Origin: Candidatus Marinacidobacterales bacterium
GTDB taxonomy: Bacteria; Acidobacteriota; Vicinamibacteria; Marinacidobacterales; DATDRI01
Direction of reading: 5' to 3'
DNA length: 64,000 nucleotides
Assembly (NCBI GenBank): GCA_965226495.1
Contig: OZ245365.1
Location: 5,376,001 to 5,440,000, forward strand
Shown: positions 1,029 to 15,838 of the stretch, piece by piece
How the letters are laid out: every line of letters begins with the position of its first letter
Position numbering within the stretch: the stretch's first letter is position 1
The notes under the pieces: model-generated
Told to the model about the DNA's origin: nothing
The model's database searches: none
Seen by the model: only the letters and a program-made list of their open reading frames with translations
Translations under genes and position numbers: made by a program

Positions 1029-3479
1029 ATGAAACTAAGATACGTCTTGCGTAAACTCGCTATAACCCCTTTATTTACAGCCGTCTCGGTGCTGACGCTC
1101 GCACTCGGCATCGGCGCCAATACGGCCATTTTCAGTGTCGTCAACGGGGTCTTGCTGAAGCCCCTCCCCTTCGACGATCCGGAGGCCCTGGTCGGTGCCT
1201 GGCACACCGCACCCGGCCTCGGCTTCGATGAGGTCAATCAGTCACCCGCAACGTATTTCACCTATCGGGAAGAGAGCCGAACGTTTGAAGACATCGGCAT
1301 GTGGGACAACAGCCAGGTCTCGGTCACCGGGCTCGAGGAGCCCGAAGAGGTCGAAGCGGTGCGGGTAAGCGACGGTACCTTTCCCATCCTTCGCGTCCAC
1401 GCGGAGATAGGGCGAGTCTTCAGCCGGGAGGACGACTCCCCCGACGCACCGGAGACGGTCATCCTCGGCCATGGGTACTGGCAAGCGCGCTTCGGCGGAG
1501 ATCGGGACGTTCTCGGCAAGACGCTTCGAGTCGACGGAAAGCCCAGAGAAATCATCGGGGTCATGCCGGCCAACCTGCGGTTTCTGCGTTTCGACCCAGC
1601 GGTTTACTTGCCCTTCCAGTGGGACCGCGCCGAAGTCTTCATGGGGAACTTTAGTTACCAGGCGCTCGCACGCCTAAAACCCGGCGCCACCGTCGAGCAA
1701 GCGAATGCCGATGTGGATCGCATGATCCCGATGGCGGTGGAGAAGTTCCCGAAAGGGATCACACTCGCCAATCTACGCGAGGCCCGAGTCGGCCCGCTGA
1801 TCCGTCCCCTCAAAGAGGATGTGGTCGGAGACATCGGTAACGTGCTCTGGGTACTGCTGGGAACGGTGGGGGTGGTCCTTCTTGTCGCGTGTGCCAACGT
1901 CGCGAACCTCTTTCTCGTTCGGGCAGAAGGCCGGCAGCAAGAGCTGGCCGTTCGGACAGCCTTGGGGGCGGACCGGCGCCAACTCGCAAAAGAGTTGCTG
2001 CTCGAGAGCATCGCGCTAGGCATCCTGGGTGGACTGGCGGGATTGGTGTTCGCCTATGGCGGGATCCGACTCCTGGTCGCCATGGGCGCGGATAGCCTAC
2101 CGAGACTCGATGAGATCGCGATCGACCCCCTGGTTCTATTGTTTACCCTCGGGATCTCGCTCTTGGCGGGGTTGCTTCTCGGACTCCTCCCCGTCTTCAA
2201 GTTCCGCAGCCTCAACCTCGTGTCGGCCCTGAAAGAAGGAGGTCGCGGAGGAAGCGAAGGGAAGGAGCGTCACCGAGCGAGGAGCGTTTTGGTTGTCTCG
2301 CAGATTGCGCTTGCGTTGATTCTACTGATTGCTTCAGGTCTCATGATCCGAAGTTTTCAAGCCTTGAAGCGCGTGCACCCCGGATTCGAGCAACCGGAGG
2401 AGGTTTTGACACTCCGCCTCTTCATTCCCGAAGCCGAGGTCGAGGACAAAGTCAAAGTGGCACGGACTCACCAGCAGATCCTGGAACGAATCAAGGCCAT
2501 CCCTGGCGTCGACTCGGTGGGTCTTTCTTCCTCGATCACGATGGATGGTTGGGACAGCAACGACGCGGTTTACGTAGAGGGTTTCCTTCCCGCGTCGGAA
2601 GATCAGCTCCCGCCTATTCGTCGTTTCAAGTGGGTCTCCGAGAATTACTTCGAGACCATGGGGAATCCCGTGTTAGCAGGGCGCTCCATCACTTGGGCCG
2701 ACATCTACAGTTATGTACCGGTCGTCGTGGTAACGGAGAACTTCGCCCGCGAGTATTGGGAAGAGCCGGCGAAGGCGATCGGAAAGCGTATAAGGCAGAA
2801 CAAGGATAACCCCTGGCGAGAGATCATCGGCGTTGTTGGCAACGTGCACGACGACGGAGTCAGCGAAGAAGCGACGGCGGTGATCTACTGGCCAATGATC
2901 GTCAAAGACTTTTGGGACGAGGAGCTCGTCACGCGCCGAGCGATGGCCTACGCGATCCGAACCGATCGCACCGCGTCACCGAGCCTCCTCAAGGAGGTAC
3001 GGCAAGCGGTCTGGTCGGTGAACCCCAACCTTCCGCTCGCCAACGTCGCCACGCTCACTGAGATCCACCAGGAATCGATGGCCCGGACATCTTTTACGCT
3101 GATCCTGCTCGGCATCGCGGCCGGTCTCGCTCTTCTCCTAGGCGCGGTCGGGATCTACGGCGTCATCTCCTACGTGGTCTCACAACGCACGCAGGAGATC
3201 GGCGTTCGGATCGCGCTCGGCGCGAGCAACGTGGACGTGATCCGTTTGGTCCTTCGTCAAGGCCTACTTCTGACCGGAACCGGGTTGTTGCTGGGACTCG
3301 CCGTCTCGGTGGGTCTCACCCGACTCATGGCGGCGCTGCTCTTCGGCGTGAGCCCCGCGGACCCATTGACCTATAGTACGGTTTCCGCGGGCCTCGCGGG
3401 CGTCGCGCTTCTGGCCAGCTACTTGCCGGCGCGACGCGCCGCCGGCCTAGACCCAACCGAGGCCCTAAGATGGGAATGA
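1029..3479 (+). CDS. ADOP-type (MacB/FtsX duplicated) ABC permease
   Basis: [32 protein letters not shown] and [25 protein letters not shown] motifs. Start moved to ATG 1029 because the longer ORF overlaps the sulfatase. Confidence 0.92.
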
Positions 3480-3498
3480 CACGTGAGTAGTTAAGAGG

Positions 3499-5645
3499 TC
3501 AATCGACCCATCCCAGCACATTGCGGGCAACCGACCAACGAGGCTCCGTTTCCTCGGCGTCTTTCCCCAGGACCCAATAATCGAAGAGCTCCCGGAGGGT
3601 CCCATCTTTCGTTTTGAGCTCGATCCACGTATCGAGAAACGCTGCCATCTCCTGGTCACCTCCCGCCACCACGTAGACCAGGGGCAGCTTGAGCGGATCG
3701 GGCTGCGGCACCACCACAGAGTACTCCGGATACAGAAGGCTCCATGCCGACCCGCGCTCGGCCGTCATGACCCCGGCATCCACCTCATCGCCTAGCTCGT
3801 CGAAGAACTCGGAGATCGTATCGATCGTCCTCACCTTGGCGTCTGGTAAGAGTCTTCGAATCCTCACGGTGATCTCTTGAAACGGCATGGTCGCGATCGT
3901 AACCGCGCCTAGCTTCCTAGCGGACTGCCAATCGCGAAATTCCGCGCGACGATGATCTTTGACTATGAAAGCCAGGGTCTCATCCATATAAGCCTGAGAC
4001 AGCGTCATGAGACGCGCCCGTTTCGTTGTCACCGCGAATCCCGACATGATGACGTCCCACCGGCTTCCATCTAGCTCTTCGAACAACTTGGTCCGATCGA
4101 CCGGAACGAACTCGAGCTCGACACCGAGCTCTCCGGCCAACTGGTGAGCCATATCCACATCGAATCCGACGAGATCTCCCGCGCCGTTAAAGAAGGCATA
4201 GGGTAGGCTGTCCAAGAAGAATCCCACCCTCAAGAATCCTCTCTCTTCGATCAGTTCCAAACGACTGAGACGATCGGAGAGCGGGAGCGGTTCCGGCGGG
4301 GCGTCACGGTATACCCGCACCGACGCCGGGGTTCGGACGAGGTGCATCCCTGCAATGATCTGATCCTGGTCGTATTGCTGATGGAGCGAGTGGCTGAACA
4401 TGAAACGGGCCCCGCCTATGGTCACGATCGTCAAAGCCAGGCTGACACCCAGATAGCGGAAGACCCTTCGCACGTTGAACGTCAGCACTCCGAGAACGGC
4501 GCAAACTCCGACCCACGCTACGGTCACGGTGTGCATCGCAGCAACGAGAGTGCCGAACCGAGACTGGACGATGTCCGTCGTCACGTAGAGCTCGAACAAG
4601 TCCGCCGGTATCTCGAAGAGATCCAGAAGAAACGGGATGGCCGCGTGGGTGCTTCCGAATAGAGTCACGAGGCCGGTCAATGCCAGCTTCGGATACTCTG
4701 ATACTGCGACGACCGACTCGGAGAACCATCCCGCGAAAAGGACGAAACTCAGCGTCAACAGCTTGCCGATGTGAGGAAAGTTGAAAGAAGAAGAAACGAT
4801 GACGTCGGTGACGTCGTCCGACTCATGAGATACCAGCTTGTGCCGGTGCAGAAGCTCCTTACTTTTGTCCATGAGAATGGGCAAGACGACAAACAGACTG
4901 CCGGTCATGAACGCGGTAATGAGCGCATCCTTCGTTTGAACGATCACTTCGCCATGCTTGATGGGAGTCACAATAGAAATCAACCCCGGAAGTAACCAGA
5001 GCGTGATCAGCAGTGCCACCGCCACATAGATGATGAGATAGACCTGAATGCGTCCAAACTCGTGGACCGTCATCGTACCCGCGGCGTTAGAGGCGATGGC
5101 GAAGATGCCGAATGGTGTCAATTGGACGACGAGGTGGTTAGCTCGGGAAATCGTCCTCTGGATGGTGTGAAGTGTGTCGAGGAGTCCCTCCTGCTTTTCC
5201 ACGCCGATCAATGCCGCTCCTAGGAGCACGCTGAACAAGACCACCGCAGGAACGACGGCATTTGCCAAAGAATGAAACGGGTTGGCAGGAATATAGAGCT
5301 CGAGAAAATTAAAGGGCTCGCTACGCTCCAGCAAGCTCGCGCTGAAAAACGACGCAGTCTCCCAAAGGAGGGAAGGCTAGCGGCATGAGGAACACCATCG
5401 CCAGCCCCAATATCCAGCGCGACCAGCACCGCACCGACTCTTCGGACCATGAGGACAGCGTGCTTGTAGTCCAGACTTCCGATTCCCACGATCAAAGAAA
5501 CCGTGACATAGGGGAGCACCGTCATATGGAGAAGCTCTATGAATGCCTCGGCGGGATAGTGCATGAACACCATGGACTCGCCGAAGAAGACACCAAGGGT
5601 GATGCCAGAAGCGAGTCCAACGTAGATCTTGGTCGAGAAGCTCAT
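3499..5645 (-). CDS. Dicarboxylate/amino acid:cation symporter (DAACS) fused to a C-terminal family-3 solute-binding domain; two apparent frameshifts near 5415 and 5365
   Basis: ORFs 5220..5645 and 3499..5334 join into one membrane protein (...ALWILGLAMVFLMPLAFPPWETASFFSASLLERSEPF...). It has IPANPFHSLA, and the C-terminal domain has GFLRVG...PYAF...GDLVGFDVDMA. Confidence 0.85.
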
Positions 5646-5697
5646 GAGAAGCGTTCGCGCGCCGGGAGCTTACACCTCTTGGTGCACTCGCCGCCAC

Positions 5698-7707
5698 TTA
5701 CGGACACGCGTAAGGCTCCCTTGTCAACGCATCCCAGATCTCACCCAACGACGTGTTCACGCACCACGCGCGCTCATGGAGGGCGCTCCATACGCCGCCC
5801 GCCTTCGCCCGCGCCTTGATAGTCATTCGGGATCCGCGAAGCGTGATCTCTTCTGCGTTCTCAGCGAGACGAGCGCTTGCGGCCGCTTCCCCTCCCGATA
5901 CACGAGGATCGACCCCGTCAATCGTATAGAAGATCCGCCCCCTCGGATTGGGATTGTGTAGTCGCGTAGAAGGCGCCGACAGAAACCCCGGACGAGTGGT
6001 ATCGAATTCGGGTGGATCGAGACGCGGATAATAGCCTTCCTGGCGAAGCACCTTTATGAGGCGCTCGACGCTCCCGGTCATCATCGTTTCGACCCTCTCC
6101 ACCTCCGTGTAAAAAGTGTTCTCCCGAGTTCGCGTGGTCGCACCTAGCCCCTTACGTGCATCTCCCCAGCGAGCCGACTCCGCTACCACCGCATCCTCGA
6201 TGAAATCGCTGAGAGCCCGCCACCTCGCTATCGAATTCTCCTCGGTAAGGGCGCCACCATGGAAACAGTGCTTGAAGACTCGATCGGCGAAGATCGTCAT
6301 GAACTCGGGACTCTTCCGAAGCGCGTGCCAGATTCCTACCATAGCCTGGTCCTGACGATCCTCCGACGAGCGAAAAGGCTCCTGAAGGTTCCAGGCGGAG
6401 CCAGAGTCGCGGCGAGCCCCATCGGGGCGACGCATACTAACCCAGCTCACTTCCGCATCCCACACAAAGAATCGAAATGGAGAGGCCGGGTGATTGCGAT
6501 TGCCCCCGTACCAGTTGTTCCTGGGCCAGTCGCCGAAGCCGGCCATGAACGCTAGAACCATGTAGTCGGCGAACCATTCGATATCGAGATACTCTTGCAC
6601 CTCACCATAGTTGTCGGGGTCGCGAAGGTCCTTATCCTTGAGCGAGCCCCGAAGATAGTCCCACCGCCCGGGGTGACCTTGGAACGGCCCGCGGTGGTTG
6701 ACCGCAAACCAATCTTCCTTTGCCCCTCCAAAGGTGGCCGACGTAAACCAGGCGTCTGGCCGCTCGCAGGCGTTATAGAGCCCCCAGTAGAGGCCGTTGA
6801 TGTATAGATGAACGAAGGTTCCGTGCGGCCCCGAGCCGGACATTGCGATCTGTGAATCCCGAGCCCATTGGTCTCGGACATACGTGGTTCGGTTTGGCAA
6901 GAAATTCATGGCAAACGAACGGATCGTCCCTGATCGCAAGACGATTCGGTCCAAAGTGTCGGTCGCCGAGTCACCGTTGAAGACGGCGTTGTCCTGGAAG
7001 AATGTCGTTTTCAGCTTCGCCGGGCCAAACTCTTTCTTGAACTTGAGCTTCAAGGAACGCTTCACCCCGGCGGCCGCGTGGGACTCCAAGGCGCAATTCT
7101 CTTGGAAGCTCCGTCCCGGGTGGTTCGGGTAAATGAACTCCGCAGACGCTTTTCGCGTGCGCCCGTCGTCGCGACTGGCGAAGTAGATCCCATCTACTCC
7201 GAACATGGCCGTCCGGTCGACGGCCAAAGACAACGTCGGGATCGACTTCAGCCCTCGAATGAGCGTTGCCCTCTGACTCGGATCGTCGACGATGTCGGGA
7301 TCCATTTCATAATCGAGCTCGACCGTCGTGTCCCTCCCCGCCGGAAGCAAGGGGGTCGGATAGCCTGCGACCTGCTTCGGCTGCCGAATCACGTCGTCTA
7401 GAAAGATGTAGGTTTGAGTATCTACGTTGCTCGGAAGTTTGCCTTGGGCGTAGGCGATGGCTCGTAACACAGTCGTCTCGGAAATGTCGACCGAAACGGG
7501 GTTTCGACCGCCCCTTCCATGGTCGGGTCCGGGGAGACTGCCGTCTGTGGTGTAACGGAGGAGAGAGCCTTCCGTTTCGGATTGGATAACCACCGTGAAT
7601 CCCACGGAGTAAAACCCTCGCTTGTAGTTGAACCTTGTGTCGGCCACCTGCTCCATCGAGCTGGCGATCCCGGAGGCCAGGAAAAGCGATGCGGCGAGCC
7701 AGATCAT
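5698..7707 (-). CDS. Secreted CotH-family kinase with flanking FN3-associated (CHB_HEX_C-like) domains
   Basis: N-terminal signal peptide. Ig-like motifs RYTTDGSLP and FYTIDGVDP. CotH motifs FVHLYINGLYWGLYNACER, DWPRNN and FVWDAE. Confidence 0.88.
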   Translation of the reverse strand: MIWLAASLFLASGIASSMEQVADTRFNYKRGFYSVGFTVVIQSETEGSLLRYTTDGSLPGPDHGRGGRNPVSVDISETTVLRAIAYAQGKLPSNVDTQTYIFLDDVIRQPKQVAGYPTPLLPAGRDTTVELDYEMDPDIVDDPSQRATLIRGLKSIPTLSLAVDRTAMFGVDGIYFASRDDGRTRKASAEFIYPNHPGRSFQENCALESHAAAGVKRSLKLKFKKEFGPAKLKTTFFQDNAVFNGDSATDTLDRIVLRSGTIRSFAMNFLPNRTTYVRDQWARDSQIAMSGSGPHGTFVHLYINGLYWGLYNACERPDAWFTSATFGGAKEDWFAVNHRGPFQGHPGRWDYLRGSLKDKDLRDPDNYGEVQEYLDIEWFADYMVLAFMAGFGDWPRNNWYGGNRNHPASPFRFFVWDAEVSWVSMRRPDGARRDSGSAWNLQEPFRSSEDRQDQAMVGIWHALRKSPEFMTIFADRVFKHCFHGGALTEENSIARWRALSDFIEDAVVAESARWGDARKGLGATTRTRENTFYTEVERVETMMTGSVERLIKVLRQEGYYPRLDPPEFDTTRPGFLSAPSTRLHNPNPRGRIFYTIDGVDPRVSGGEAAASARLAENAEEITLRGSRMTIKARAKAGGVWSALHERAWCVNTSLGEIWDALTREPYACP

Positions 7708-7794
7708 CGGCCTGATTATAGGCTGACTCGTGCGGTTGAAGCGGCGGCTTGCCCGTTAGAAGCGGCTAGACTAACATCGCTCGACTCGAAGGCT

Positions 7795-9135
7795 ATGCTG
7801 CGGACAGAGGCTTCTCTCAAAGACCTAGGGCTATACCGCCTTATTCCCGCGAGCCTGACGATCTTGACCATCAGTTTGTCGGGCTGCAGCCCCCCTTCGC
7901 AGGACAGTATGTACTCGCTTATGGACGGCCTCCAGGAAGCCAGCAAGCATTTCGAGGGCGGTCGTTATCCAGATTTCGTCGGCGAACCGAGCGCCTCCGG
8001 CCCGGTGGAGATCGCCGGGAGAGAGATGGAGGCGTTAACACCCCCGTTTCCATCCACGACGAGTTTCGAGATCGTAGTGCCTCGCGCAGGCTTCCTCGAG
8101 TTCTCACCGGCTCTGATCATGGCGCAACGCGTTCGACGCGCCCGAGTCGAGTATCGAATCATTCTGGAGGGGCTGGAGGGGCCTGATGGCGACGAAACTA
8201 CCAGTGTCTACCGGGAGACATTTCGAGCCAACGAAGCCAATCAGTGGCACGATCGCCGGGTCGATTTATCGCCCTGGGAAGGCCAGACCATCGTCTTGAC
8301 GTTTTCGACGCAGACGATCCCCCCGCGCGAGAACGCCTTGTGGGCCGAGCGCATCCAGACTGCGTGGGGAGATCCGATCCTTGCCGAACGTCCATGGAAC
8401 TTGTTGGCGAATAGCATCGAACGGCTCCCCTCCGAATCCGTCAATTGGTTGGGAGAACAATTCGACGACTCCGGCCTCGGACCGGACGAGCAAGTCATGA
8501 CGGCGCGCTTCTTCATCAACCTCCTGGTGGGCGGTCTGTTGGCGCTGGCAATCCGTGAGCTCTACAGACGCTACTCTTCGACGGTTATCAACCGGGAGTC
8601 TTTTGCAGACATGCTCCCGCTCTTCACACTGAGCACGATTGTCGTCATCTCGGTCGTACAATATTCTCCCGCGCTTGCCTTAGGACTTATCGGCGCCTTG
8701 TCCATTGTTAGGTTTCGAACCTCGATCGCGAGTCCCGAAGAGCTCGTTTATCTCCTGGTGTGTGTTGGCCTCGGCGTAGCATTGGGAGGAAACCACATGC
8801 TGCTAGGAATCACGACAGTGAGTGTGATAGCGCCCTTCGTCATATGGTTGAGAGGGTCGGGTGAAGCTAGGACTCCTGACCGCTTGGTTCTCACCGTGAC
8901 CGGAGATGCGAGTCGTTTCTTCTCGAGCGACGGCCCGAGCGTCGTCGACATCGTTCAGCGCATGACTAAAGTCATGACCGTGGACAGGCTCGACTATCAG
9001 GCGAAAGAAGTGTTCTTTCGAGCGCAGATTGTGGTCGAGAACCGTGACCGCGCCATAGAGCTGCTGACAACGCTTCGGGGAAGGGTTCGCCAATGCGAAA
9101 TTTCGACGCACGATACGAGCACGTCTGGGCATTAA
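7795..9135 (+). CDS. DUF4956 membrane protein with an N-terminal lipoprotein-type beta-rich ectodomain
   Basis: Lipobox-like LTISLSGC. Ectodomain motif WHDRRVDLSPWEGQTIVLTFST...AWGDP. DUF4956 signature ALALGLIGALSIVRFRTSIASPEELVYL. Start is uncertain. Confidence 0.85.
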   Translation: MLRTEASLKDLGLYRLIPASLTILTISLSGCSPPSQDSMYSLMDGLQEASKHFEGGRYPDFVGEPSASGPVEIAGREMEALTPPFPSTTSFEIVVPRAGFLEFSPALIMAQRVRRARVEYRIILEGLEGPDGDETTSVYRETFRANEANQWHDRRVDLSPWEGQTIVLTFSTQTIPPRENALWAERIQTAWGDPILAERPWNLLANSIERLPSESVNWLGEQFDDSGLGPDEQVMTARFFINLLVGGLLALAIRELYRRYSSTVINRESFADMLPLFTLSTIVVISVVQYSPALALGLIGALSIVRFRTSIASPEELVYLLVCVGLGVALGGNHMLLGITTVSVIAPFVIWLRGSGEARTPDRLVLTVTGDASRFFSSDGPSVVDIVQRMTKVMTVDRLDYQAKEVFFRAQIVVENRDRAIELLTTLRGRVRQCEISTHDTSTSGH

Positions 9136-9169
9136 ATGGATCAGTGCGCGCTCAATCGTCGATCACGGC

Positions 9170-9356
9170 CGCGGGGCCCCACCGACATTACTGCATCACA
9201 GCTCGCGGGGACCCCACCCCCACGAGCTACAACTGGGCTGATGGCTCCGGCTCTCGATTCGCGTCTCGCTTCCCGCCTACGCTCTTCGAGCTTCGGCGAG
9301 GTCCCGCCGCAGCCTTGGCAAAGGCGGACGCTCGCGCTGCGCTCGGGCTGAGGGCT
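9170..9356. repeat. REP-like GC-rich palindromic intergenic element
   Basis: The reverse complement shares gccctcagcccg, gcgcagcgc and ggggtgggg(t/c)ccc with 48773-48987. It contains internal hairpins. Confidence 0.5.
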
Positions 9357-9386
9357 CTGCCGCCGACCGAAGCTGGGTGAGTCCGT

Positions 9387-11513
9387 ATGGACCTTGTTCG
9401 CTCCGTCTGCGTCCTGTTGATCTCTACGGGGTTCCTCGCCGCCGAACCTCCGCAGGCGCTCAATCAGGTCAAGGACACTCGCTTCAACTACAAACGCGGG
9501 TTCTATTCTTCAGGCATCACCGTGCTCATCTCCTCCAATACCGACGGAGCACGCATCCGCTACACACTCGACGGAAGTGCCCCGACGCCTACCCACGGAG
9601 GGGGAGACCGAAACCCCCTGACCGTGGACATAGACCGAACCACGACCTTGAGAGTTATCGCTTACAAGGAGGGAATGCTTTCCAGCAATGTAGACACTCA
9701 AACCTACCTCTTCCTAAAGGATGTCCTCGAGCAGCCGGCACGAGTTCCCGGCTACCCGAACCCCAAGCTGCCAAGCGGTATCCGTGAGATGGTGACGCTC
9801 GAATACGAAATGGACCCACGAGTCGTGCGCGATCGGCACGACCGGTTTGCCATGCGGCGCGGACTCGAATCCATCCCCACTCTCTCGATCGTCATGGACA
9901 AAGACGACCTGTTTCGACGGGTCACTCTACCTGGCAGCGACCGTACTGATGTTCTTGGAAGTGGGATCTATTGGGGAGGGAGCATGGAGGGAGGCCGTTT
10001 CGGAAGTCGGGAGGGGAGCACGCGGCCCGCATCCGTCGAGCTCTTGTACCCTCATCGACCTGCAAAGAACACCCAGGTAGATGCTGCCATCGAGGGACAC
10101 AGTTGGCGCCTCGTCAAACGGGCGTTCCGGCTCGTGTTCAAGAAGGAGTACGGTACGGGAAAATTCGAATCTTCCATCTTCCAAGACGCCCCACTGAATG
10201 GCGAGACCGCGGCCGGCGTTTACGATCGGATCGTGCTCCGTTCAGGGAAGAACCGTTCCTGGGCCACGAGCTGGTATCCCAACCGCACCGCCTATACGCG
10301 CGATCAATGGGCCAGGGATACTCAGATCGCGATGTCAGGGCTAGGCTCGCACGGCACGTTCGTGCATCTGTACCTCAACGGACTCTATTGGGGTGTCTAC
10401 AACGCGTGCGAAAGGCCCGACGCTTGGTTCTTGGCTGCACATCTGGGTGGATCGATGCAGGACTGGTTCGCGGTGAACGAAGATGGGCCTTTTCATGGAG
10501 ACCCGGCGCGGTGGAATTACCTGAGGCGCGAGCTCAAAGACAAGAATATGCGAGAACCTTCCCATTATGAAGAGCTCCAGAGGTACCTGGACATAGCAAA
10601 GTTCGCGGACTACATGATCCTCTGCTGGTACATGCACGATTGGGATTGGCCAGACTACAACTGGTTCGCGGGAAGCCGTATCAATCCCCCTTCTCCCATA
10701 ATGTTTTTCGTATGGGATGCTGAGCTCAGTTGGGAGACCGGCCCGGACGCGGCAGCTTGGGTGCATCCCCGTTTTCGAGCCGACCAAGATAGCGACGAAG
10801 CCAACATGGTAGGCATATGGCATTCGCTCAGAAAGAACAGTGACTTCATGATTCTATTTGCGGATCGCGTATATCGTCATTGTTTTAACGAGGGAGCTCT
10901 GACCCAGGTCAACGTCACGGAGCGTTGGCGGTTTCTCAATCGGTTCGTCGAGGACGCTCTTCTTGCTGAGTCGGCTCGTTGGGGTGACGCACGAGAAGAA
11001 GTGGGTGCGACGAGGCGAACTCGAGAGAATACGTTCTATCCAGAGGTGGAACGAGTCGCGGAGCGGATGCGTAGAAACGTCGAGAAGCTCATTGAGGCCT
11101 TACGTGAAGAGGGCTATTACCCTGCCCTCGATCCCCCGGAGCTAAAGGTTTCGACGGCCCTGACCGGTGGGAAGGTCGTTGAGTTGGGTAATCCCAATAG
11201 GCGCAACAGGCCTAACAGGCCCAACCGCGACAATGGAACCATCTATTACACGTTGACCGGCGAAGATCCTCGCTCTCCCGGCGGCGACCTTTCGCCGAAC
11301 GCCTTTCGCGGAGCTGCCGGGAAGAAAATTACGCTGGGGCTATCTGCGACTTTGAAGGCTCGTGTCAAGACCAACGGGCCCGAAGGCGAATGGAGTGCCC
11401 TTGCGGAAGCGATGCCCGGCTTCCTGGCTACGGTCAGAGCGAACCCGTCTTTTCTCTCGGGCCCTCCGCAGTTACATCGCTCGGCGATAGCGTCACATCC
11501 ATTGCGCCATTAG
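9387..11513 (+). CDS. Secreted CotH-family kinase with FN3-associated domains (paralogue of 5698..7707)
   Basis: Signal peptide. Shares DTRFNYKRGFYS, SNVDTQTY and RDQWARD blocks with the paralogue. CotH motifs GLYWGVYNACERPD, DWPDYN and FVWDAE. Confidence 0.88.
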   Translation: MDLVRSVCVLLISTGFLAAEPPQALNQVKDTRFNYKRGFYSSGITVLISSNTDGARIRYTLDGSAPTPTHGGGDRNPLTVDIDRTTTLRVIAYKEGMLSSNVDTQTYLFLKDVLEQPARVPGYPNPKLPSGIREMVTLEYEMDPRVVRDRHDRFAMRRGLESIPTLSIVMDKDDLFRRVTLPGSDRTDVLGSGIYWGGSMEGGRFGSREGSTRPASVELLYPHRPAKNTQVDAAIEGHSWRLVKRAFRLVFKKEYGTGKFESSIFQDAPLNGETAAGVYDRIVLRSGKNRSWATSWYPNRTAYTRDQWARDTQIAMSGLGSHGTFVHLYLNGLYWGVYNACERPDAWFLAAHLGGSMQDWFAVNEDGPFHGDPARWNYLRRELKDKNMREPSHYEELQRYLDIAKFADYMILCWYMHDWDWPDYNWFAGSRINPPSPIMFFVWDAELSWETGPDAAAWVHPRFRADQDSDEANMVGIWHSLRKNSDFMILFADRVYRHCFNEGALTQVNVTERWRFLNRFVEDALLAESARWGDAREEVGATRRTRENTFYPEVERVAERMRRNVEKLIEALREEGYYPALDPPELKVSTALTGGKVVELGNPNRRNRPNRPNRDNGTIYYTLTGEDPRSPGGDLSPNAFRGAAGKKITLGLSATLKARVKTNGPEGEWSALAEAMPGFLATVRANPSFLSGPPQLHRSAIASHPLRH

Positions 11514-11553
11514 TTTGGCTGGAGTATCATCTCGGCCACAGAAGGAAGACGAC

Positions 11554-12240
11554 GTGCTGGCGAACCTGACCGATTGGTATAACAACCTGAGCCCGGAAAC
11601 GAACATGGTCGTTCGTTGTACGATCAGTATGCTCCTCGGTGGCGTAATCGGCATCTACGTCCGGGAGCTCTACAAGCGTTGCAGTACCTCCCTTTCGAAT
11701 CGGGAGAGCTTCGCGAACATTTTTCCGGTACTCACTGCGGTCACCGTGGTGATCATTTTCGTGGTCAAGTCATCGCTAGCGCTGTCTCTGGGGCTGGTCG
11801 GAGCACTCTCCATCGTTCGGTTCCGAACCGCCATCAAGACCCCAGAGGAGCTCGTCTACTTGTTTTTCTGTATCGGAGTCGGCCTCGCTCTCGGAGCAGA
11901 ACATCGGCTACTAGCCTTCGTGGCGGTCTTCGTCGTTTCGGTCTTTATCTTGAGCCGCCGCTTTCTTACCAAGAGGGCCCGTCAGCACAATCTGCTTCTT
12001 ACCGTCACCGGTGATGCGGATCGCTTCTTCGAGAAGTCCGGAGGCAACGTGGTGGACATCCTCAAAGAAACCACAAAGAGCCTCACCATTCAGCGTTTCG
12101 ACCTCGAGGAGGGGCAGGTTCAATTCCGCGCTAACGTCTCTCTGCAGAGTCCGGATGAAACCACCGCCCTCATGTTCGCCCTCCAGACAAAACTTCCACA
12201 GCTGCAAGTTTCCTACGTGAATCTAGATTCGCTGCTCTAG
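11554..12240 (+). CDS. DUF4956 membrane protein (stand-alone)
   Basis: SLALSLGLVGALSIVRFRTAIKTPEELVYLFFCIGVGLALGA. N-terminal transmembrane helices and a soluble C-terminus. GTG 11554 follows AAGGAAG. Confidence 0.9.
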   Translation: MLANLTDWYNNLSPETNMVVRCTISMLLGGVIGIYVRELYKRCSTSLSNRESFANIFPVLTAVTVVIIFVVKSSLALSLGLVGALSIVRFRTAIKTPEELVYLFFCIGVGLALGAEHRLLAFVAVFVVSVFILSRRFLTKRARQHNLLLTVTGDADRFFEKSGGNVVDILKETTKSLTIQRFDLEEGQVQFRANVSLQSPDETTALMFALQTKLPQLQVSYVNLDSLL

Positions 12241-12250
12241 TGTTCTGCGC

Positions 12251-13465
12251 TTAGGGCTGGTCGAGGAGTGCCAGGAGTGTCCTGCGGCGGGACAGGAGGC
12301 GTTCTTGGAAAACGAGCATCCTTTTCGTCCGGTCGGTACGCGCGGCTAACTGCACTTCCTCAGGAAGCCCGCTGTCGATCTTCTCCACCGTCTCCCTGAC
12401 GTTTCGCAAGGTAGCGATTAGCTTCTCTTCCGTCAGAAGGCCTTCTAAGAGACTACGGAGGACGCGTTTGTATCAAGAATATAGCTGCTTGTCTTCACGA
12501 ATGACGAAATCGAGATCCATTTCGCAAGCGTAGAGCAAGGGGTCGCGAAGCACCAACCCTGCCCGAATCGGCATCTCTTGAACGTCATCGTAATCCCAAG
12601 CCACCAAATCGAGCCGTCCCCACTGAGCATCTTTAGCTCGCTCTTCGAAGAGGTAGAGCTCGTTGCGAGAGTCTCCGTTCTCGGACAGGCTGTTGAACGC
12701 CAGCCAGCGAAGGTAGCGGTCAAGGTTCATTTTGCGATCTAGCTCGTCCTCCAAGGCCTTGCCGTTCTCTTTCCTCGTCGCGCGCCGTATCGAGTGCACA
12801 AGGCTCAACGGATCGGACTGAGGGATTGAGTATTTGACGGAGTACTTCACTCTTGCTCTCCGACCGTTTGGCCGTATCACGGAGACTACGTTAGATGAGC
12901 TCCGGCGGATGGCGTCCTCGGGTCGCTCGACCAATAAGTAGAGTCCTTGCGGTTTTCCATTGATAAAGATGCTCACGTACTGAAAATAGCTTGGAAAAAG
13001 GCCCAGCTTCGCAAGAAGACGATAGCCGGTGACCATCTCGAAACGATGCGGATCGAAGAGCATGTTCAGCAGAAGGAATTTGCGGAGCTTGACCTCAGTG
13101 AATCTCTGCGTTTCGAACAGGGTGACTAGAAAGCTCTTGCGTTCCGACCACCTGGTCGTCGCCCCGCGAACGCGCAGCATCGCCGGCATGGCCGGCCCGC
13201 TGGCAAACGAGATATCCACTTGCGCCTGGAATCTGAGGCGTTTCCGGAAATCCAGGACGACGCTTTCCGGCATGCCCAGGTCGACTCTGAGACCTGGCCG
13301 ATCGATTCGCCGCTCGGTAAAAATGCGCCGGGCCTTCCCTTGCTCGGGCAGTGTGTCGAAGCCAGTTCCTTGTTCCGTATCGGGGAGGCTAAGCGCAACG
13401 AAGATCCCGATCGCCACCAGGACCAACGGGAGAAGGAGCCAAGGGAAGAGGGAGCGCAAACGCAT
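12251..13465 (-). CDS. Membrane-anchored CotH-family kinase with an in-frame TGA at 12473-12475
   Basis: N-terminal transmembrane anchor. Motifs LRVRGATT...RKSF, GKPQGLYLLVERP, NGD and VAWDYD. The frame stays open after the TGA (YKRVLRSLLEG...LLALLDQP*) to TAA at 12251. Confidence 0.78.
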
Positions 13466-13502
13466 CCGTTTCGTTGGGCCCTAAGACGGGGTGAAACCAG
13501 CG

Positions 13503-14969
13503 TTACTCAGTCGCCGAGGAGCCATCCAATAAGCCGAGTTGCAGACAGCCTTGCACGTATTTGGACGATTTCGTGACATAAGGCTCGATGGGATGCAGCA
13601 ATGCTCTCAGCGCTTCACTGTTGGCGGTCGGAATCTTGGCCTCCAGGATCACAAGCTCTGACCCCTTGGTGCCGAACGCCTTTCGTGGACGGTTCAACCC
13701 CCTCTGAGAGTAGCTGACGATATCCTCATCCAACGTGATGCGCGCCGGGCTTCCCGATGCGCGAAAATACTCGCGCCGATACCGTGTCATCAGGACCGCC
13801 TCTGGACGGGCCAGCAGCATTTCTGCTGCAGGCACTGGCAAAACCCTCTGCAGCTCGGCCAAGATTTCACGATAGGTCATATCTCCCAACGGCTGATGTG
13901 CACGGAGCTCAACACGTTCTTTGTGAATCATGGAGTCGACGCGCCTCTTGATTTCGAAAAAAAATCGCCCGCGGCGGTCATCGTCATCGTACCAGCGAAG
14001 CCTGACTTTCGCCCTTCGCGGCACACCATCCAAGTTCTCTTGACAGCCGCTCAGTCGAACGTCGTCGTAATAGATAGTGCTGACCACCGAACTAGGTCCG
14101 TTGTGTATGATACGCTGACAGTTAACCTCGAGTATCGAGCGCACTTTCGCTACATCGGCGTTAGGGAGGGCAAACTTCACTTCTCGACGCGACAGATCGA
14201 CTCCTGATGATTCTCGCGGCTCCTCGACCACTTCCAGTTTCGCCGACGACGCGGCGGTCACCTTACCGGCCCGCTCAGAAATCGCCTTCCCACCGCCCGC
14301 CTGAACGTCGTCGATAGCGACAGAGGATACCTTGAGTTGAGGGAGCACCCCTCGGAGCTCCTCCAAAACGTCAGTCGTTTCCTCAGTTGCTTCTAGAGTC
14401 AACATGGCGCGGAGCTCCACTCGGTCGCCATCCTGGTCGAGCCGCTGAAACGTAACTGGCTTGATCTTGCTCAAGCGCTCCAGACCGGACAAGCCATCAC
14501 TAGGGAAAAAGTGCTCCGCGTCGCCGGCAATTTTCAGGATCAGCGTCCTCTCATAGGCTGGATGATTCGCGACCTGGCGGAAGATGACGAACGTGGCCAC
14601 AATCACCGCGGCGACGAGGGCGAGAGTAAGCTGACCTGCACCTAGCGCCAAGCCCATCGAGACGCAGAACAACAGGTAAACAATCTCCTCCGGGCTCTTG
14701 ATAGGTCCCCGGAACCGGACAATCGTGAGTGCTCCAATTAGACCCAGCGAAAGAGCAAGCGATGCCTGAACGACCGCGATGACGACGATGGTCGTCATCG
14801 TGAAGAGCGGAAACATTCTTGCGAACTCCTCCCGGTCGGACGCAGTGGTTCCGAAGTGTTTGTAGAGCGCTCCAATGAAAAGCGCCAAGAGCCCTCCCAA
14901 GGTAAGGTTGAGTCCAAAAAACAAGAGGGCTCGAACGTCTTCTGGAGCCAAACCTAGGGAAATGTTCAT
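13503..14969 (-). CDS. DUF4956-VTC (polyphosphate polymerase/CYTH-like) fusion protein
   Basis: N-terminal half has SLALSLGLIGALTIVRFRGPIKSPEE. C-terminal half has VTC motifs RREVKF, STIYYDD, KVRLRWY, FEIKRR, YRREYF, RITLD, ILEAK and SKY. Confidence 0.9.
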   Translation of the reverse strand: MNISLGLAPEDVRALLFFGLNLTLGGLLALFIGALYKHFGTTASDREEFARMFPLFTMTTIVVIAVVQASLALSLGLIGALTIVRFRGPIKSPEEIVYLLFCVSMGLALGAGQLTLALVAAVIVATFVIFRQVANHPAYERTLILKIAGDAEHFFPSDGLSGLERLSKIKPVTFQRLDQDGDRVELRAMLTLEATEETTDVLEELRGVLPQLKVSSVAIDDVQAGGGKAISERAGKVTAASSAKLEVVEEPRESSGVDLSRREVKFALPNADVAKVRSILEVNCQRIIHNGPSSVVSTIYYDDVRLSGCQENLDGVPRRAKVRLRWYDDDDRRGRFFFEIKRRVDSMIHKERVELRAHQPLGDMTYREILAELQRVLPVPAAEMLLARPEAVLMTRYRREYFRASGSPARITLDEDIVSYSQRGLNRPRKAFGTKGSELVILEAKIPTANSEALRALLHPIEPYVTKSSKYVQGCLQLGLLDGSSATE

Positions 14970-15002: not shown

Positions 15003-15674
15003 TCAACTCGCCACCCGTACTCCGGAGCGAAGCGTCACGATCCCGGTGGCTGCTAGCCACAACGCCCATAGGTGAAAGATGGGCAAGTAGAAATGCAGGT
15101 CATCGGGGAAACCCATGGTCACCGCCATTGCACCGACCCCAATGACCGCTGGAATGACGCCGAGCCACACCGGCAGTATTTTCCACTTCAATAGACCGGC
15201 TGCCGTGACCAGCAACCCAAAGCCCGAGAAGACACGCCCAAATCGAACGAGACAGGTGATGTATTCCGTGTCGGTTCGCAGCGAGTCGATGTAGCTGCGA
15301 ATCTCCGCCCCCGACTTTCCGACCATCTCGAGAGCGCCCCAAGCACCGAAATGATAGTAGAACGCCGCACCTGCCGCACCCACCATCAGCCCCGCCACCG
15401 TGACCGCCACGCCGGGCCAAATCAAAATCCGCGCTTCCGCGTCGGTGAGTAACGCCCCTAAAGCAACCAACGCCATAACGGATACAACAATACCGAAGAA
15501 ATGAATCCGGTACATCCATATCCAGAACCTTAGGTTCTCAGCGACCGCGGAGAAATCTCCGACTTGGAAGAACGTCCCGATGCGGGTTGGGAGGAAAATC
15601 CATCCGAGCCACAGAAGCAAACCAGCGGCTAGGAATGCTGACCCTGTTACCTGCGTGCTGAAGTCGCGTTTCAT
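15003..15674 (-). CDS. Hypothetical multi-pass membrane protein
   Basis: About 6 hydrophobic segments. No family recognised with confidence. Confidence 0.7.
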   Translation of the reverse strand: MKRDFSTQVTGSAFLAAGLLLWLGWIFLPTRIGTFFQVGDFSAVAENLRFWIWMYRIHFFGIVVSVMALVALGALLTDAEARILIWPGVAVTVAGLMVGAAGAAFYYHFGAWGALEMVGKSGAEIRSYIDSLRTDTEYITCLVRFGRVFSGFGLLVTAAGLLKWKILPVWLGVIPAVIGVGAMAVTMGFPDDLHFYLPIFHLWALWLAATGIVTLRSGVRVAS

Positions 15675-15838
15675 CAAGATCTCGTTCTCCCAGAAGCGGC
15701 GGTTACCGAGATTGTCGTAGTACCACCACGTAGCTTCCTTCGAGGGCCGATGCGCGATCGGAGGGAAACCTCACGGCGCGCACCGAGCGTGAAGGCCACA
15801 ACCGAAGGGCAACCACAGCGGAAGGGCCTCGAGAAAAA

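What the first reader, a model, noticed from the sequence alone, without database searches (positions are those of the whole stretch)
5698..14969. VTC-DUF4956-CotH cluster: candidate polyphosphate synthesis/export machine feeding extracytoplasmic kinases
Seen: six contiguous genes draw on only three families. Three CotH kinases all have a signal peptide or TM anchor, three DUF4956 membrane proteins are present, and one VTC domain is fused to a DUF4956. Established: the yeast VTC complex couples a CYTH-fold polyP polymerase (Vtc4) to a heteromeric TM channel that translocates polyP. CotH proteins are atypical kinases related to the Fam20C secretory kinases. The periplasm is generally considered to lack ATP. 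Inference: the DUF4956 paralogues form a channel, the cytoplasmic VTC domain makes polyP or another phosphoryl donor, and the exported CotH enzymes use it to phosphorylate surface proteins or glycans. I recall these three families as neighbours in other bacteria but know of no functional characterisation.
Basis: partly seen in the sequence, partly recalled or inferred. Interest (0 to 1): 0.9.

Follow-up and report, generated by a model that had tools for sequence, protein, structure and literature searches.

The report
Polyphosphate enzyme, membrane proteins, exported kinases
Six neighbouring genes in a marine acidobacterium pair a yeast-type polyphosphate-making enzyme, fused to a membrane protein, with kinase-like enzymes that sit outside the cytoplasm; the gene set is widespread but untested, and it may show how bacteria bring phosphoryl-transfer chemistry to the ATP-free side of the membrane.

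Summary
Window 5698-14969 carries three CotH genes, three DUF4956 genes and one VTC domain fused C-terminally to a DUF4956. These are the genome's only VTC and DUF4956 copies.

Corrections: CotH3 is cut short by an in-frame TGA where two orthologues have Arg. The long DUF4956 most likely starts at 7795, with a lipobox and a CBM51-like periplasmic domain. CotH1 has no orthologue in the two sister loci.

The linkage is real. 30 of 31 VTC hits in 41 relatives lie within 400 bp of a DUF4956, and 22 of 31 within 5 kb of a CotH. A 121-genome phylum sample and 80 metagenome loci agree.

The VTC domain keeps all nine Vtc4 triphosphate/Mn residues. The DUF4956 topology puts VTC inside. All three CotH keep both catalytic aspartates and have hydrophobic N-termini.

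The triad is already in print as untested accessory genes of Gram-positive pel loci. This scan has noted it before on other DNA (229 notes).

The polyphosphate-export-to-kinase model is plausible but unproven. DUF4956 shows no detected match to the yeast channel family, and the Streptococcus VTC deletion had no reported phenotype.

The parts
5698..7707 (-). CotH1 (669 aa). Short hydrophobic N-terminus, CHB_HEX_C_1/Fn3_assoc domain at residues 30-100, CotH kinase-like domain at 216-541. An extra paralogue of CotH2 that the two sister loci lack.
   Evidence: Pfam. N-terminus. Catalytic Asp positions (GDW... and WDAE) are conserved in alignments A4 and A8 and map to B. cereus CotH D224 and D247. 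Its best matches in L023 and L024 are the CotH2 orthologues at 52-55% identity.
7795..9135 (+). Long DUF4956 paralogue (446 aa from Met at 7795; the open frame begins at 7519). N-terminal hydrophobic helix ending in lipobox-like LSGC, CBM51-like beta-sandwich (residues about 37-200), five TM helices (about 230-354), ACT-like C-terminal domain (about 362-440).
   Evidence: Pfam DUF4956. AF2 model with mean pLDDT 74, beta-sandwich at 80-93. VIA-align: 7js4 CBM51 Z 13.1, rmsd 2.7 A over 133 residues; 2vmi Z 12.6; ACT domains Z 9.2-9.8 for residues 359-446. The N-terminal domain is conserved in 18 of the 20 other rows of alignment A6; the two exceptions, L075 and L080, are stop-to-stop frames with unrelated N-termini.
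9387..11513 (+). CotH2 (708 aa). Signal-peptide-like N-terminus, CHB_HEX_C_1/Fn3_assoc domain, CotH domain at residues 321-557.
   Evidence: Pfam. N-terminal hydrophobic stretch. Orthologues are present in L023 and L024. Catalytic Asp are conserved.
11515..12240 (+). Short DUF4956 paralogue (241 aa). Five TM helices plus an ACT-like domain. A core of about 50 residues (TM2 to TM4) is almost invariant across relatives.
   Evidence: Pfam E 1.3e-15. Alignment A7 of 14 sequences has 61 invariant columns, including K85, R102, R104, K108, E111 and E112. Loop charge pattern.
12473..13465 (-). CotH3 (330 aa as it stands). N-terminal TM anchor and CotH domain. Truncated by an in-frame TGA at 12473-12475.
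   Evidence: Pfam E 8.8e-29. phmmer against B. cereus CotH 5jd9 gives E 1.3e-8. TGA seen. Orthologues of 418 and 402 aa have Arg at that position.
12251..12472 (-). Tail of the ancestral CotH3 frame after the TGA (73 codons plus stop). It still aligns with the C-termini of the intact orthologues.
   Evidence: Translation. Orthologue alignment. The Pfam match runs through the stop.
13503..14969 (-). DUF4956-VTC fusion (488 aa). Five TM helices (9-134), ACT-like domain (139-218), disordered linker (226-244), VTC triphosphate-tunnel domain (245-480).
   Evidence: Pfam. AF2 model with mean pLDDT 81 and VTC domain above 90. In Foldseek every row down to rank 12 is a Vtc2/3/4 structure, E 1.8e-12 to 1.5e-10. 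Profile against PDB finds Vtc4 at E 5.7e-15. Residues K265, R323, R325, K341, Y397, R399, E443, S469 and K470 align with Vtc4 K200, R264, R266, K281, Y359, R361, E426, S457 and K458.

Best explanation
This is a membrane-bound module for moving phosphoryl chemistry across the inner membrane.

Shown by computation:
- The VTC domain is tethered to the cytoplasmic end of a five-helix DUF4956 protein.
- Two further DUF4956 paralogues are encoded alongside. One carries a periplasmic carbohydrate-binding-like domain.
- The neighbouring CotH enzymes have intact catalytic aspartates and N-terminal export or anchor signals.

Inferred:
- The VTC domain polymerises phosphate from ATP as yeast Vtc4 does.
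- The DUF4956 proteins form the path by which the polymer, or its phosphoryl groups, reach the periplasm.
- The CotH enzymes use it there, most likely to phosphorylate an envelope glycan or glycoprotein. That guess rests on the CBM51-like and CHB_HEX_C domains and on the link to Pel polysaccharide loci in Gram-positives.

My odds for each step:
- VTC and DUF4956 act as one unit: about 0.9.
- VTC makes polyphosphate: about 0.6.
- DUF4956 exports it: about 0.4.
- CotH uses it as donor: about 0.25.
For: Linkage
- The fusion itself joins DUF4956 and VTC. 18 of 31 homologue clusters carry both domains. One cluster also adds the periplasmic domain, and three drop the ACT-like part.
- Relatives (41 genomes): 30 of 31 VTC hits lie within 400 bp of a DUF4956, and 22 of 31 within 5 kb of a CotH.
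- Phylum sample (121 genomes): 13 of 14 VTC genomes have DUF4956 and 12 of 14 have CotH. 12 of 15 VTC hits lie within 3 kb of a DUF4956 and 10 of 15 within 5 kb of a CotH.
- Metagenome loci (80): of 39 loci with at least 1 kb on both sides, 38 have DUF4956 within 1.5 kb. Of 12 with at least 4 kb on both sides, 9 have CotH within 8 kb. A sample of 10 hits was confirmed 10 of 10 by Pfam.
- Of the 14 control genomes, VTC and DUF4956 ring in the same 3. CotH rings in those 3 plus B. subtilis.

Enzyme
- The profile of 64 VTC proteins hits Vtc4, Vtc2 and Vtc3 and no other TTM family at E <= 0.1. The only other row is a penicillin-binding protein at E 0.042.
- The nine critical Vtc4 residues all have conserved equivalents here. 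That includes K458, the one lost in inactive Vtc2/3.
- The fold is nearest to the Vtc structures.

Topology
- The model has five helices. K+R counts are 8-11 in loops 1-2, 3-4 and after TM5, against 0-1 in loops 2-3 and 4-5.
- The long paralogue's lipobox and beta-sandwich domain fit an N-out arrangement.

CotH
- The two Asp whose mutation inactivates B. subtilis CotH (D228Q, D251A) are conserved in all three.

Context
- The genome has PPK1 and PPK2 elsewhere, so VTC is not needed for ordinary polyphosphate.
- No PelG was found in the genome.
Against: - No biochemical data exist for any bacterial VTC domain in the library I could search.
- Bacterial VTC domains have an invariant Glu (E263) where Vtc4 has Thr198, and basic residues R319/K321 where Vtc4 has Ala. 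As I recall, that Glu belongs to the ExExK motif of hydrolytic tunnel enzymes, so a hydrolase activity is not excluded.
- DUF4956 shows no match to the VTC1/DUF202 channel family. It has only weak sub-threshold matches to MgtC, which is not known as a channel.
- In S. intermedius the VTC deletion had no reported aggregation or Pel phenotype, while the DUF4956-like and CotH deletions did, with opposite effects on Pel level.
- DUF4956 occurs without VTC or CotH in 8 of 16 genomes of one related family and in 4 of 121 phylum genomes. A fifth phylum genome, G122, has DUF4956 beside CotH without VTC.
- 5 of 17 CotH genomes in the phylum sample lack VTC.
- CotH3 is truncated in this genome.
- No outer-membrane component is encoded in the cluster.
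Confidence: 0.4

Rival explanations
1. Polyphosphate is the end product. VTC plus DUF4956 deposit it in the periplasm or on the surface as a phosphate or cation store or as a polyanionic coat. The CotH proteins bind, anchor, trim or attach it rather than using it as a general phosphoryl donor.
For: This reading shares the linkage, residue and topology evidence of the main one. In 2 CotH-less loci of the 5 metagenome loci whose neighbours I put through Pfam, VTC-DUF4956 sits beside EF-hand calcium-binding proteins instead of CotH (L079, L103). An HlyD-type adaptor lies about 2.5 kb from the pair in 1 of those 5 loci (L076), in line with earlier notes of this scan on HlyD/TolC variants.
Against: Both catalytic Asp of CotH are conserved in all three copies and in relatives, which argues for catalysis rather than mere binding. 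The tight CotH/VTC co-occurrence (19 of 20 CotH genomes in the relatives sample have VTC) fits a dependence of CotH on the module. No outer-membrane duct is present in this window.
Confidence: 0.2
2. This is a regulatory or homeostatic module, not an exporter. DUF4956 acts like MgtC, a five-helix protein with an ACT-like tail that modulates other membrane proteins and phosphate signalling. The VTC domain acts as a triphosphate/ATP hydrolase or sensor. The CotH genes are co-regulated targets.
For: Weak MgtC matches: E 0.002 for the fusion and 5 of 14 short DUF4956 at best E 0.012. The same likeness is stated for SIR_1592 in the mBio paper. ACT-like domains are present in both models. Lone DUF4956 genes sit beside phytase-like and calcineurin-like/PhoD-like phosphoesterases in 4 of 4 loci examined, which is a phosphate-scavenging context without VTC. 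E263 resembles hydrolytic tunnel enzymes (the motif is recalled). The VTC deletion has no reported phenotype in S. intermedius.
Against: The profile and the fold are closer to Vtc4 than to any hydrolytic tunnel enzyme: Vtc4 E 5.7e-15 with no other TTM family at E <= 0.1, and YgiF four orders weaker in Foldseek. The Lys that separates active Vtc4 from inactive Vtc2/3 is invariant. All MgtC matches are below Pfam's cut-off. Three fusion clusters lack the ACT-like domain altogether.
Confidence: 0.2
3. The adjacency reflects only shared regulation or co-inheritance of envelope genes. The CotH enzymes use ATP or another donor and do not depend on VTC or DUF4956.
For: 60 of 93 CotH hits in the relatives sample are more than 8 kb from any VTC or on another contig. 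B. subtilis has CotH without VTC or DUF4956. 5 of 17 CotH genomes in the phylum sample lack VTC.
Against: The three families are patchily distributed yet travel together across at least ten families of the phylum sample: 12 genomes have all three and 98 of 121 have none. Gene order varies while the content is kept. In S. intermedius the DUF4956-like and CotH deletions affect the same trait.
Confidence: 0.1

Closest known systems
cotH / polyphosphate-polymerase-domain / DUF4956 accessory genes of Gram-positive pel loci (Whitfield et al., bioRxiv 10.1101/768473; S. intermedius SIR_1592-1594, mBio 2025, PMC12345266)
   Same: The same three families are adjacent, with a secreted CotH and a multi-TM DUF4956/MgtC-like protein carrying an ACT-like tail (passages read).
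   Different: There are no pel genes within the ORFs scanned from 828 to 30542, and no PelG match in the whole genome, which is 94.8% complete. No DUF4832 was seen. Here the host is Gram-negative, VTC is fused to a DUF4956, and there are three DUF4956 and three CotH copies, one DUF4956 carrying a CBM51-like periplasmic domain. The mBio authors wrote that they did not find the triad outside pel loci. This locus and those show the triad in genomes other than theirs; pel genes were looked for only in this window and genome.
Eukaryotic VTC complex (yeast Vtc4/Vtc3/Vtc1; PDB 3g3q, 7ytj, 8i6v)
   Same: The catalytic tunnel domain has the same Pfam family and fold and the same nine triphosphate/Mn residues. 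It is tethered to a membrane domain on the cytoplasmic side.
   Different: No SPX domain is present. The membrane part is a five-helix DUF4956, not the three-helix VTC1/DUF202 type. An extra Glu and two extra basic residues line the bacterial tunnel. The far side of the membrane is the periplasm rather than a vacuole. Coupled translocation is shown for yeast only.
Bacillus CotH spore-coat kinase (PDB 5jd9/5jda)
   Same: Same Pfam family and conserved catalytic Asp pair.
   Different: Bacillus CotH works with ATP (the kinase assays quoted use it). That it acts in the mother-cell cytoplasm is recalled. The proteins here have export signals and glycan-associated domains, and one is truncated.
MgtC family
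   Same: A TM bundle followed by an ACT-like cytoplasmic domain. The five-helix count and ACT fold of MgtC are recalled; the mBio paper says the same of SIR_1592.
   Different: Only sub-threshold sequence matches were found. MgtC is a regulator of other membrane proteins and is not known to transport anything.
VTC/DUF4956 cassettes with an HlyD adaptor and TolC duct, noted earlier in this scan on other genomes
   Same: The same VTC-DUF4956 pair next to CotH proteins.
   Different: No adaptor or duct lies in this cluster. I saw an HlyD-type gene near the pair in 1 of the 5 metagenome loci whose neighbours I scanned (L076).

Membership tests
VTC domain / Vtc4-type polyphosphate polymerase (PF09359) | Pfam VTC match above the gathering score | tested here: met
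   85.7 bits against a cut-off of 23, profile positions 2-233 of 235.
VTC domain / Vtc4-type polyphosphate polymerase (PF09359) | Triphosphate-tunnel fold, closest to Vtc structures | tested here: met
   The AF2 VTC domain has pLDDT above 90. In Foldseek every row down to rank 12 is a Vtc2/3/4 structure, then YgiF at 3.3e-8.
VTC domain / Vtc4-type polyphosphate polymerase (PF09359) | Residues K200, R264, R266, K281, Y359, R361, E426, S457, K458 of Vtc4 | tested here: met
   All nine align with K265, R323, R325, K341, Y397, R399, E443, S469 and K470. Eight are invariant and Y397 is nearly invariant in 64 homologues. The residue list comes from a passage of bioRxiv 10.1101/2023.01.27.525886.
VTC domain / Vtc4-type polyphosphate polymerase (PF09359) | ATP-dependent polyphosphate synthesis | not testable with these tools
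   Needs an enzyme assay.
Eukaryotic VTC complex | SPX regulatory domain and VTC1/DUF202-type three-helix channel subunits | tested here: not met
   No SPX or DUF202 match in any of the six proteins or in 14 short DUF4956 proteins at E <= 0.1.
CotH kinase family (PF08757) | Pfam CotH match above the gathering score | tested here: met
   72.7, 53.7 and 101.5 bits against a cut-off of 23.8.
CotH kinase family (PF08757) | Catalytic Asp pair (B. subtilis D228 and D251) | tested here: met
   Conserved in all three copies and in orthologues. They align with B. cereus D224 and D247. Mutant data come from passages of bioRxiv 10.1101/469122.
CotH kinase family (PF08757) | Complete kinase domain | tested here: not met
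   Met for CotH1 and CotH2. CotH3 lacks about 73 C-terminal residues because of an in-frame TGA.
CotH kinase family (PF08757) | Ser/Thr kinase activity with ATP | not testable with these tools
   Needs an assay. The donor preference is the open question.
DUF4956 (PF16316) | Pfam match above the gathering score | tested here: met
   36.7, 58.0 and 43.9 bits against a cut-off of 30.6.
MgtC family (PF02308) | Pfam MgtC match above the gathering score | tested here: inconclusive
   18.9 bits against a cut-off of 31.4 for the fusion. 5 of 14 short DUF4956 match, best E 0.012. The ACT-like tail and five helices agree.
pel-locus accessory set (cotH, polyP polymerase, DUF4956, DUF4832) | Contiguous with a pelDEADAFG operon | tested here: not met
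   No Pel family in the flanking ORFs from 828 to 30542. No PelG match in the genome.

The most novel reading that the evidence does not exclude
Bacteria have a counterpart of the eukaryotic VTC machine, built on an unrelated five-helix membrane protein. Polyphosphate is made at the inner face and threaded outward through a DUF4956 oligomer. There it serves as the phosphoryl or energy donor for exported kinase-fold enzymes such as CotH, and in some lineages for other phosphotransferases. In effect it would be a substitute for ATP outside the cytoplasm, used here to phosphorylate envelope glycans.
Probability: 0.2. Interest if true: 0.9.

Novelty: new variant of a known kind. Interest (0 to 1): 0.6.

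Why it matters
How bacteria drive phosphoryl transfer outside the cytoplasm, where ATP is not expected, is an open question. A polyphosphate polymerase physically fused to a membrane protein, next to exported kinase-fold enzymes, gives a concrete and testable route.

This locus adds three things:
- A natural fusion that fixes which side of the membrane the polymerase is on.
- A carbohydrate-binding-like domain on the periplasmic side, which points to a glycan target.
- A clear case of the cassette in a genome with no detectable pel locus.

If the model is wrong, the cassette is still one of the more widespread gene sets with no tested function. One search found 2663 VTC cluster representatives at E <= 0.001.

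Tried and rejected
- Single-sequence phmmer of the fusion and of CotH1 against PDB found nothing. Profiles were needed.
- The first profile (A1, close fusions only) gave only a marginal Vtc4 hit, E 0.058.
- Complex prediction on the membrane plus ACT parts of the three DUF4956 paralogues returned 'no answer' (score 0.02 against a mark of 0.32, controls not run). This says nothing either way about oligomerisation.
- The promoter and terminator scan was at chance level: 5 found against 3.8 expected, and 9 against 10.0.
- The Atlas feature search of the periplasmic domain gave only sub-0.9 leads, NPCBM/GH98 CBM at 0.86. The fold search later agreed.
- The PNAS CotH paper could not be read because it is not held. 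What I say of Nguyen et al. 2016 comes from passages of another paper.
- The metagenome scan with the 64-sequence alignment was rejected as too diverse. A 10-sequence alignment was used instead, so the 80 loci are biased to VTC domains 40-97% identical to this one.
- The 224-aa membrane ORF at 15003-15677 was considered as a seventh member. I rejected it because it is conserved only in the two closest relatives examined (L025, L023) and reduced to a 28-residue match in L024.
- The phosphate-selective porin at 23258-24640 was considered as an outer-membrane partner. It is syntenic in L023 but gave no match in L024, and it lies 8 kb away, so no link can be claimed.
- I considered TGA read as selenocysteine or as a sense codon in CotH3. 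I rejected this because orthologues have Arg there.

Full report
**What is there**

Between 5698 and 14969 the window holds six genes from three main Pfam families:
- CotH1, 5698-7707(-), 669 aa.
- A long DUF4956 protein, ORF 7519-9135(+).
- CotH2, 9387-11513(+), 708 aa.
- A short DUF4956 protein, 11515-12240(+), 241 aa.
- CotH3, 12473-13465(-), 330 aa.
- A 488-aa fusion, 13503-14969(-), with DUF4956 at residues 31-138 and VTC at 261-477.

All matches exceed Pfam's gathering scores. CotH1 and CotH2 also carry an N-terminal CHB_HEX_C_1/Fn3_assoc domain.

In the whole 6.34-Mb genome the VTC hit is unique. All three DUF4956 hits lie here, as do three of seven CotH hits. Titles of two close relatives read 'Candidatus Marinacidobacterales bacterium'. 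A 54%-identical homologue is named Vicinamibacteria. The host is therefore an acidobacterium. The flanking genes are unrelated to Pel: MacB/FtsX, an SDF-SBP fusion, DUF1326, a copper chaperone, a PAS histidine kinase, and porins.

**Corrections to the observation**

CotH3 stops at an in-frame TGA, after which the frame continues for 73 codons. Orthologues in two sister genomes are intact (418 and 402 aa) and have Arg at that position. The gene is therefore truncated here, or the base is an assembly error.

The long DUF4956 most likely starts at 7795. That start gives a hydrophobic N-terminus ending in LSGC and an 87-bp spacer to the divergent CotH1. Orthologues are 454-471 aa.

CotH1 has no orthologue in the sister loci. 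Its best matches there are the CotH2 orthologues at 52-55% identity. The conserved core is therefore five genes.

**Linkage across genomes**

Relatives sample, 41 genomes of the same order:
- VTC occurs in 19, CotH in 20 (the same 19 plus G006) and DUF4956 in 29.
- From the hit tables, 30 of 31 VTC hits lie within 400 bp of a DUF4956 hit. 22 of 31 lie within 5 kb of a CotH hit.
- Most of the nine misses are on short contigs. G003 and one G022 copy are not.

Phylum sample, 121 genomes of at least 90% completeness:
- VTC is in 14, DUF4956 in 18, CotH in 17. Twelve genomes have all three and 98 have none.
- 12 of 15 VTC hits lie within 3 kb of a DUF4956 and 10 of 15 within 5 kb of a CotH. I read these off the place tables.

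Metagenome sample, 80 loci chosen by VTC similarity:
- I scanned them with home-made iterated HMMs. 73 held a DUF4956 and 52 a CotH.
- Of 39 loci with at least 1 kb on both sides, 38 had DUF4956 within 1.5 kb.
- Of 12 loci with at least 4 kb on both sides, 11 had DUF4956 within 5 kb and 9 had CotH within 8 kb.
- Ten sampled hits were all confirmed by Pfam.

Kin are not independent and the metagenome loci are biased to relatives of this VTC. Even so, the distribution is patchy across many families while the content is kept.

Counter-examples:
- 60 of 93 CotH hits are not near a VTC.
- 5 CotH genomes and 5 DUF4956 genomes in the phylum sample lack VTC.
- 8 of 16 genomes of one related family have a lone DUF4956.

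**The VTC domain**

A search of 1.84 billion cluster representatives found 2663 relatives at E <= 0.001. Most of the 150 listed are standalone proteins of about 225-260 aa.

A 64-sequence alignment has 20 invariant columns. Its profile hits Vtc4 (3g3q) at E 5.7e-15. It hits no triphosphate-tunnel family other than Vtc4, Vtc2 and Vtc3 at E <= 0.1; the only other row is a penicillin-binding protein at E 0.042.

A passage of the Vtc4 cryo-EM preprint (bioRxiv 10.1101/2023.01.27.525886) lists K200, R264, R266, K281, R361, K458, S457 and Y359 as critical and E426 as the Mn ligand. It says K458 is the only one changed in inactive Vtc2/3. By the alignment these correspond to K265, R323, R325, K341, R399, K470, S469, Y397 and E443, all conserved.

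There are differences. An invariant Glu (E263) stands where Vtc4 has Thr198, and R319/K321 stand where Vtc4 has Ala.

The AF2 model has a confident VTC domain (pLDDT above 90). Its best Foldseek matches are all Vtc structures, ahead of YgiF and other tunnel enzymes.

**The DUF4956 proteins**

Both models show five TM helices followed by a beta-alpha-beta-beta-alpha-beta domain. That domain matches ACT domains at Z 9.2-9.8.

Basic residues cluster in loops 1-2 and 3-4 and after TM5 (8-11 K+R). Loops 2-3 and 4-5 have 0-1. This gives an N-out, C-in topology, so the fused VTC is cytoplasmic.

The long paralogue's N-terminal domain is a beta-sandwich most like CBM51 carbohydrate-binding modules (7js4 Z 13.1, rmsd 2.7 A over 133 residues). 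It is conserved in homologues.

Natural variants support one physical unit:
- 18 of 31 homologue clusters fuse DUF4956 to VTC.
- One 706-aa protein adds the periplasmic domain as well.
- Three clusters join the TM bundle to VTC without the ACT-like part.

The short paralogue has an almost invariant stretch of about 50 residues from TM2 to TM4, with conserved K85, R102, R104, K108, E111 and E112.

Sequence likeness to MgtC is weak and below threshold. No likeness to the yeast VTC1 channel family was found.

**The CotH proteins**

CotH3 aligns with B. cereus CotH (5jd9) at E 1.3e-8. A profile of the long type aligns at E 5.5e-12.

The aspartates that correspond to B. subtilis D228 and D251 are conserved in all three copies and in their relatives. 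Mutating either one inactivates the B. subtilis enzyme (passages).

The N-termini are hydrophobic. CotH3 has a positively charged start followed by a long apolar helix, which reads as a signal anchor. CotH2 is signal-peptide-like. CotH1 is shorter and weaker. I could not run a signal-peptide predictor.

**Context**

The genome has PPK1 and PPK2 elsewhere, so ordinary polyphosphate metabolism does not need VTC. No PelG match exists in the genome.

Lone DUF4956 genes in a related family sit in a conserved set: Omp85-like protein, DUF4956, phytase-like protein and calcineurin-like/PhoD-like phosphoesterase. 4 of 4 loci have the last two and 3 of 4 have the Omp85-like gene. So DUF4956 keeps a phosphate-related, envelope context even without VTC.

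I put neighbours in 5 of the 80 metagenome loci through Pfam:
- In 2 loci without CotH, EF-hand proteins follow the VTC-DUF4956 pair. One of them carries a PPDK_N nucleotide-binding domain.
- In 1 locus, an HlyD-type adaptor lies nearby.

**What is known**

The three families were described as accessory genes next to Gram-positive pel operons (passages of bioRxiv 10.1101/768473).

In S. intermedius, deleting the DUF4956-like SIR_1592 or the CotH SIR_1594 cut aggregation by more than half in one medium and shifted Pel levels in opposite directions. The passages I read mention no phenotype for the VTC deletion SIR_1593 (PMC12345266). Those authors also wrote that they did not find the triad outside pel loci. 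The present locus is such a case.

C. perfringens NELoc-2 has VTC, 'tubulin-like' membrane genes and CotH (PMC2879425).

My searches for DUF4956, for VTC-domain accessions, and for CotH with polyphosphate found no biochemical study of a bacterial VTC domain and no paper proposing polyphosphate as CotH donor. This covers only the held library, and supplements were closed.

This scan has noted the cassette before on other DNA: 229 notes in at least 214 genomes. Those notes are leads and do not count as evidence.

**Verdict**

The mechanism is partly supported.

Well supported by computation:
- VTC and DUF4956 form one membrane unit.
- VTC is cytoplasmic with an intact Vtc4-type site.
- The catalytically intact CotH enzymes lie outside.

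Inferred only:
- Polymer synthesis.
- Passage through DUF4956.
- Use by CotH.

The carbohydrate-binding-like domains and the Pel link make an envelope glycan the most likely target. The rivals remain open: polyphosphate as end product, an MgtC-like regulatory module, or mere co-regulation.

Noticed in passing
L105-L108 (G009, G013, G025, G035), around locus positions 2300-9400: Lone DUF4956 genes in genomes with no VTC or CotH hit sit in a conserved set: a large Omp85-like protein, DUF4956, a phytase-like/SdiA-regulated protein and a calcineurin-like/PhoD-like phosphoesterase. 4 of 4 loci have the last two and 3 of 4 have the Omp85-like gene.
   Followed up: partly
L103:10819-13724 and L079:4333-5103: In two metagenome loci without CotH, EF-hand/dockerin-like calcium-binding proteins follow the VTC-DUF4956 pair. 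One is a 737-aa protein with a PPDK_N (pyruvate phosphate dikinase nucleotide-binding) domain, possibly a different phosphotransferase partner.
   Followed up: no
L076:5397-6680 (HlyD); L076, L077, L085, L055 (CotH genes): An HlyD-type adaptor lies about 2.5 kb from a VTC-DUF4956 pair in L076. In other lineages the cassette's CotH proteins are fused to ankyrin repeats or a lamin-tail domain.
   Followed up: partly
own genome G000:C1:6270867-6271271 (outside the window): A second CotH hit in this genome also has one in-frame TGA inside the match. That makes two of seven CotH hits.
   Followed up: no
window 23258-24640 (-): A phosphate-selective porin O/P family gene lies 8 kb from the cluster. 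It is syntenic in the closest relative L023 but gave no match in L024.
   Followed up: partly
window 3499-5334 (-): A 611-aa ORF joins a partial sodium:dicarboxylate symporter domain (profile positions 115-382) to a family-3 solute-binding domain. This is an unusual pairing.
   Followed up: no
window 15003-15677 (-): A 224-aa multi-pass membrane ORF with no Pfam match lies 33 bp upstream of the fusion gene on the same strand. It is conserved in L025 (98%) and L023 (90%) but reduced to a 28-residue match in L024.
   Followed up: yes
proteins P0011 and P0016-P0018: Natural architectural variants of the fusion. P0011 (706 aa) joins the periplasmic domain, DUF4956 and VTC in one chain. P0016-P0018 (about 400 aa) link the TM bundle to VTC without the ACT-like domain.
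   Followed up: partly
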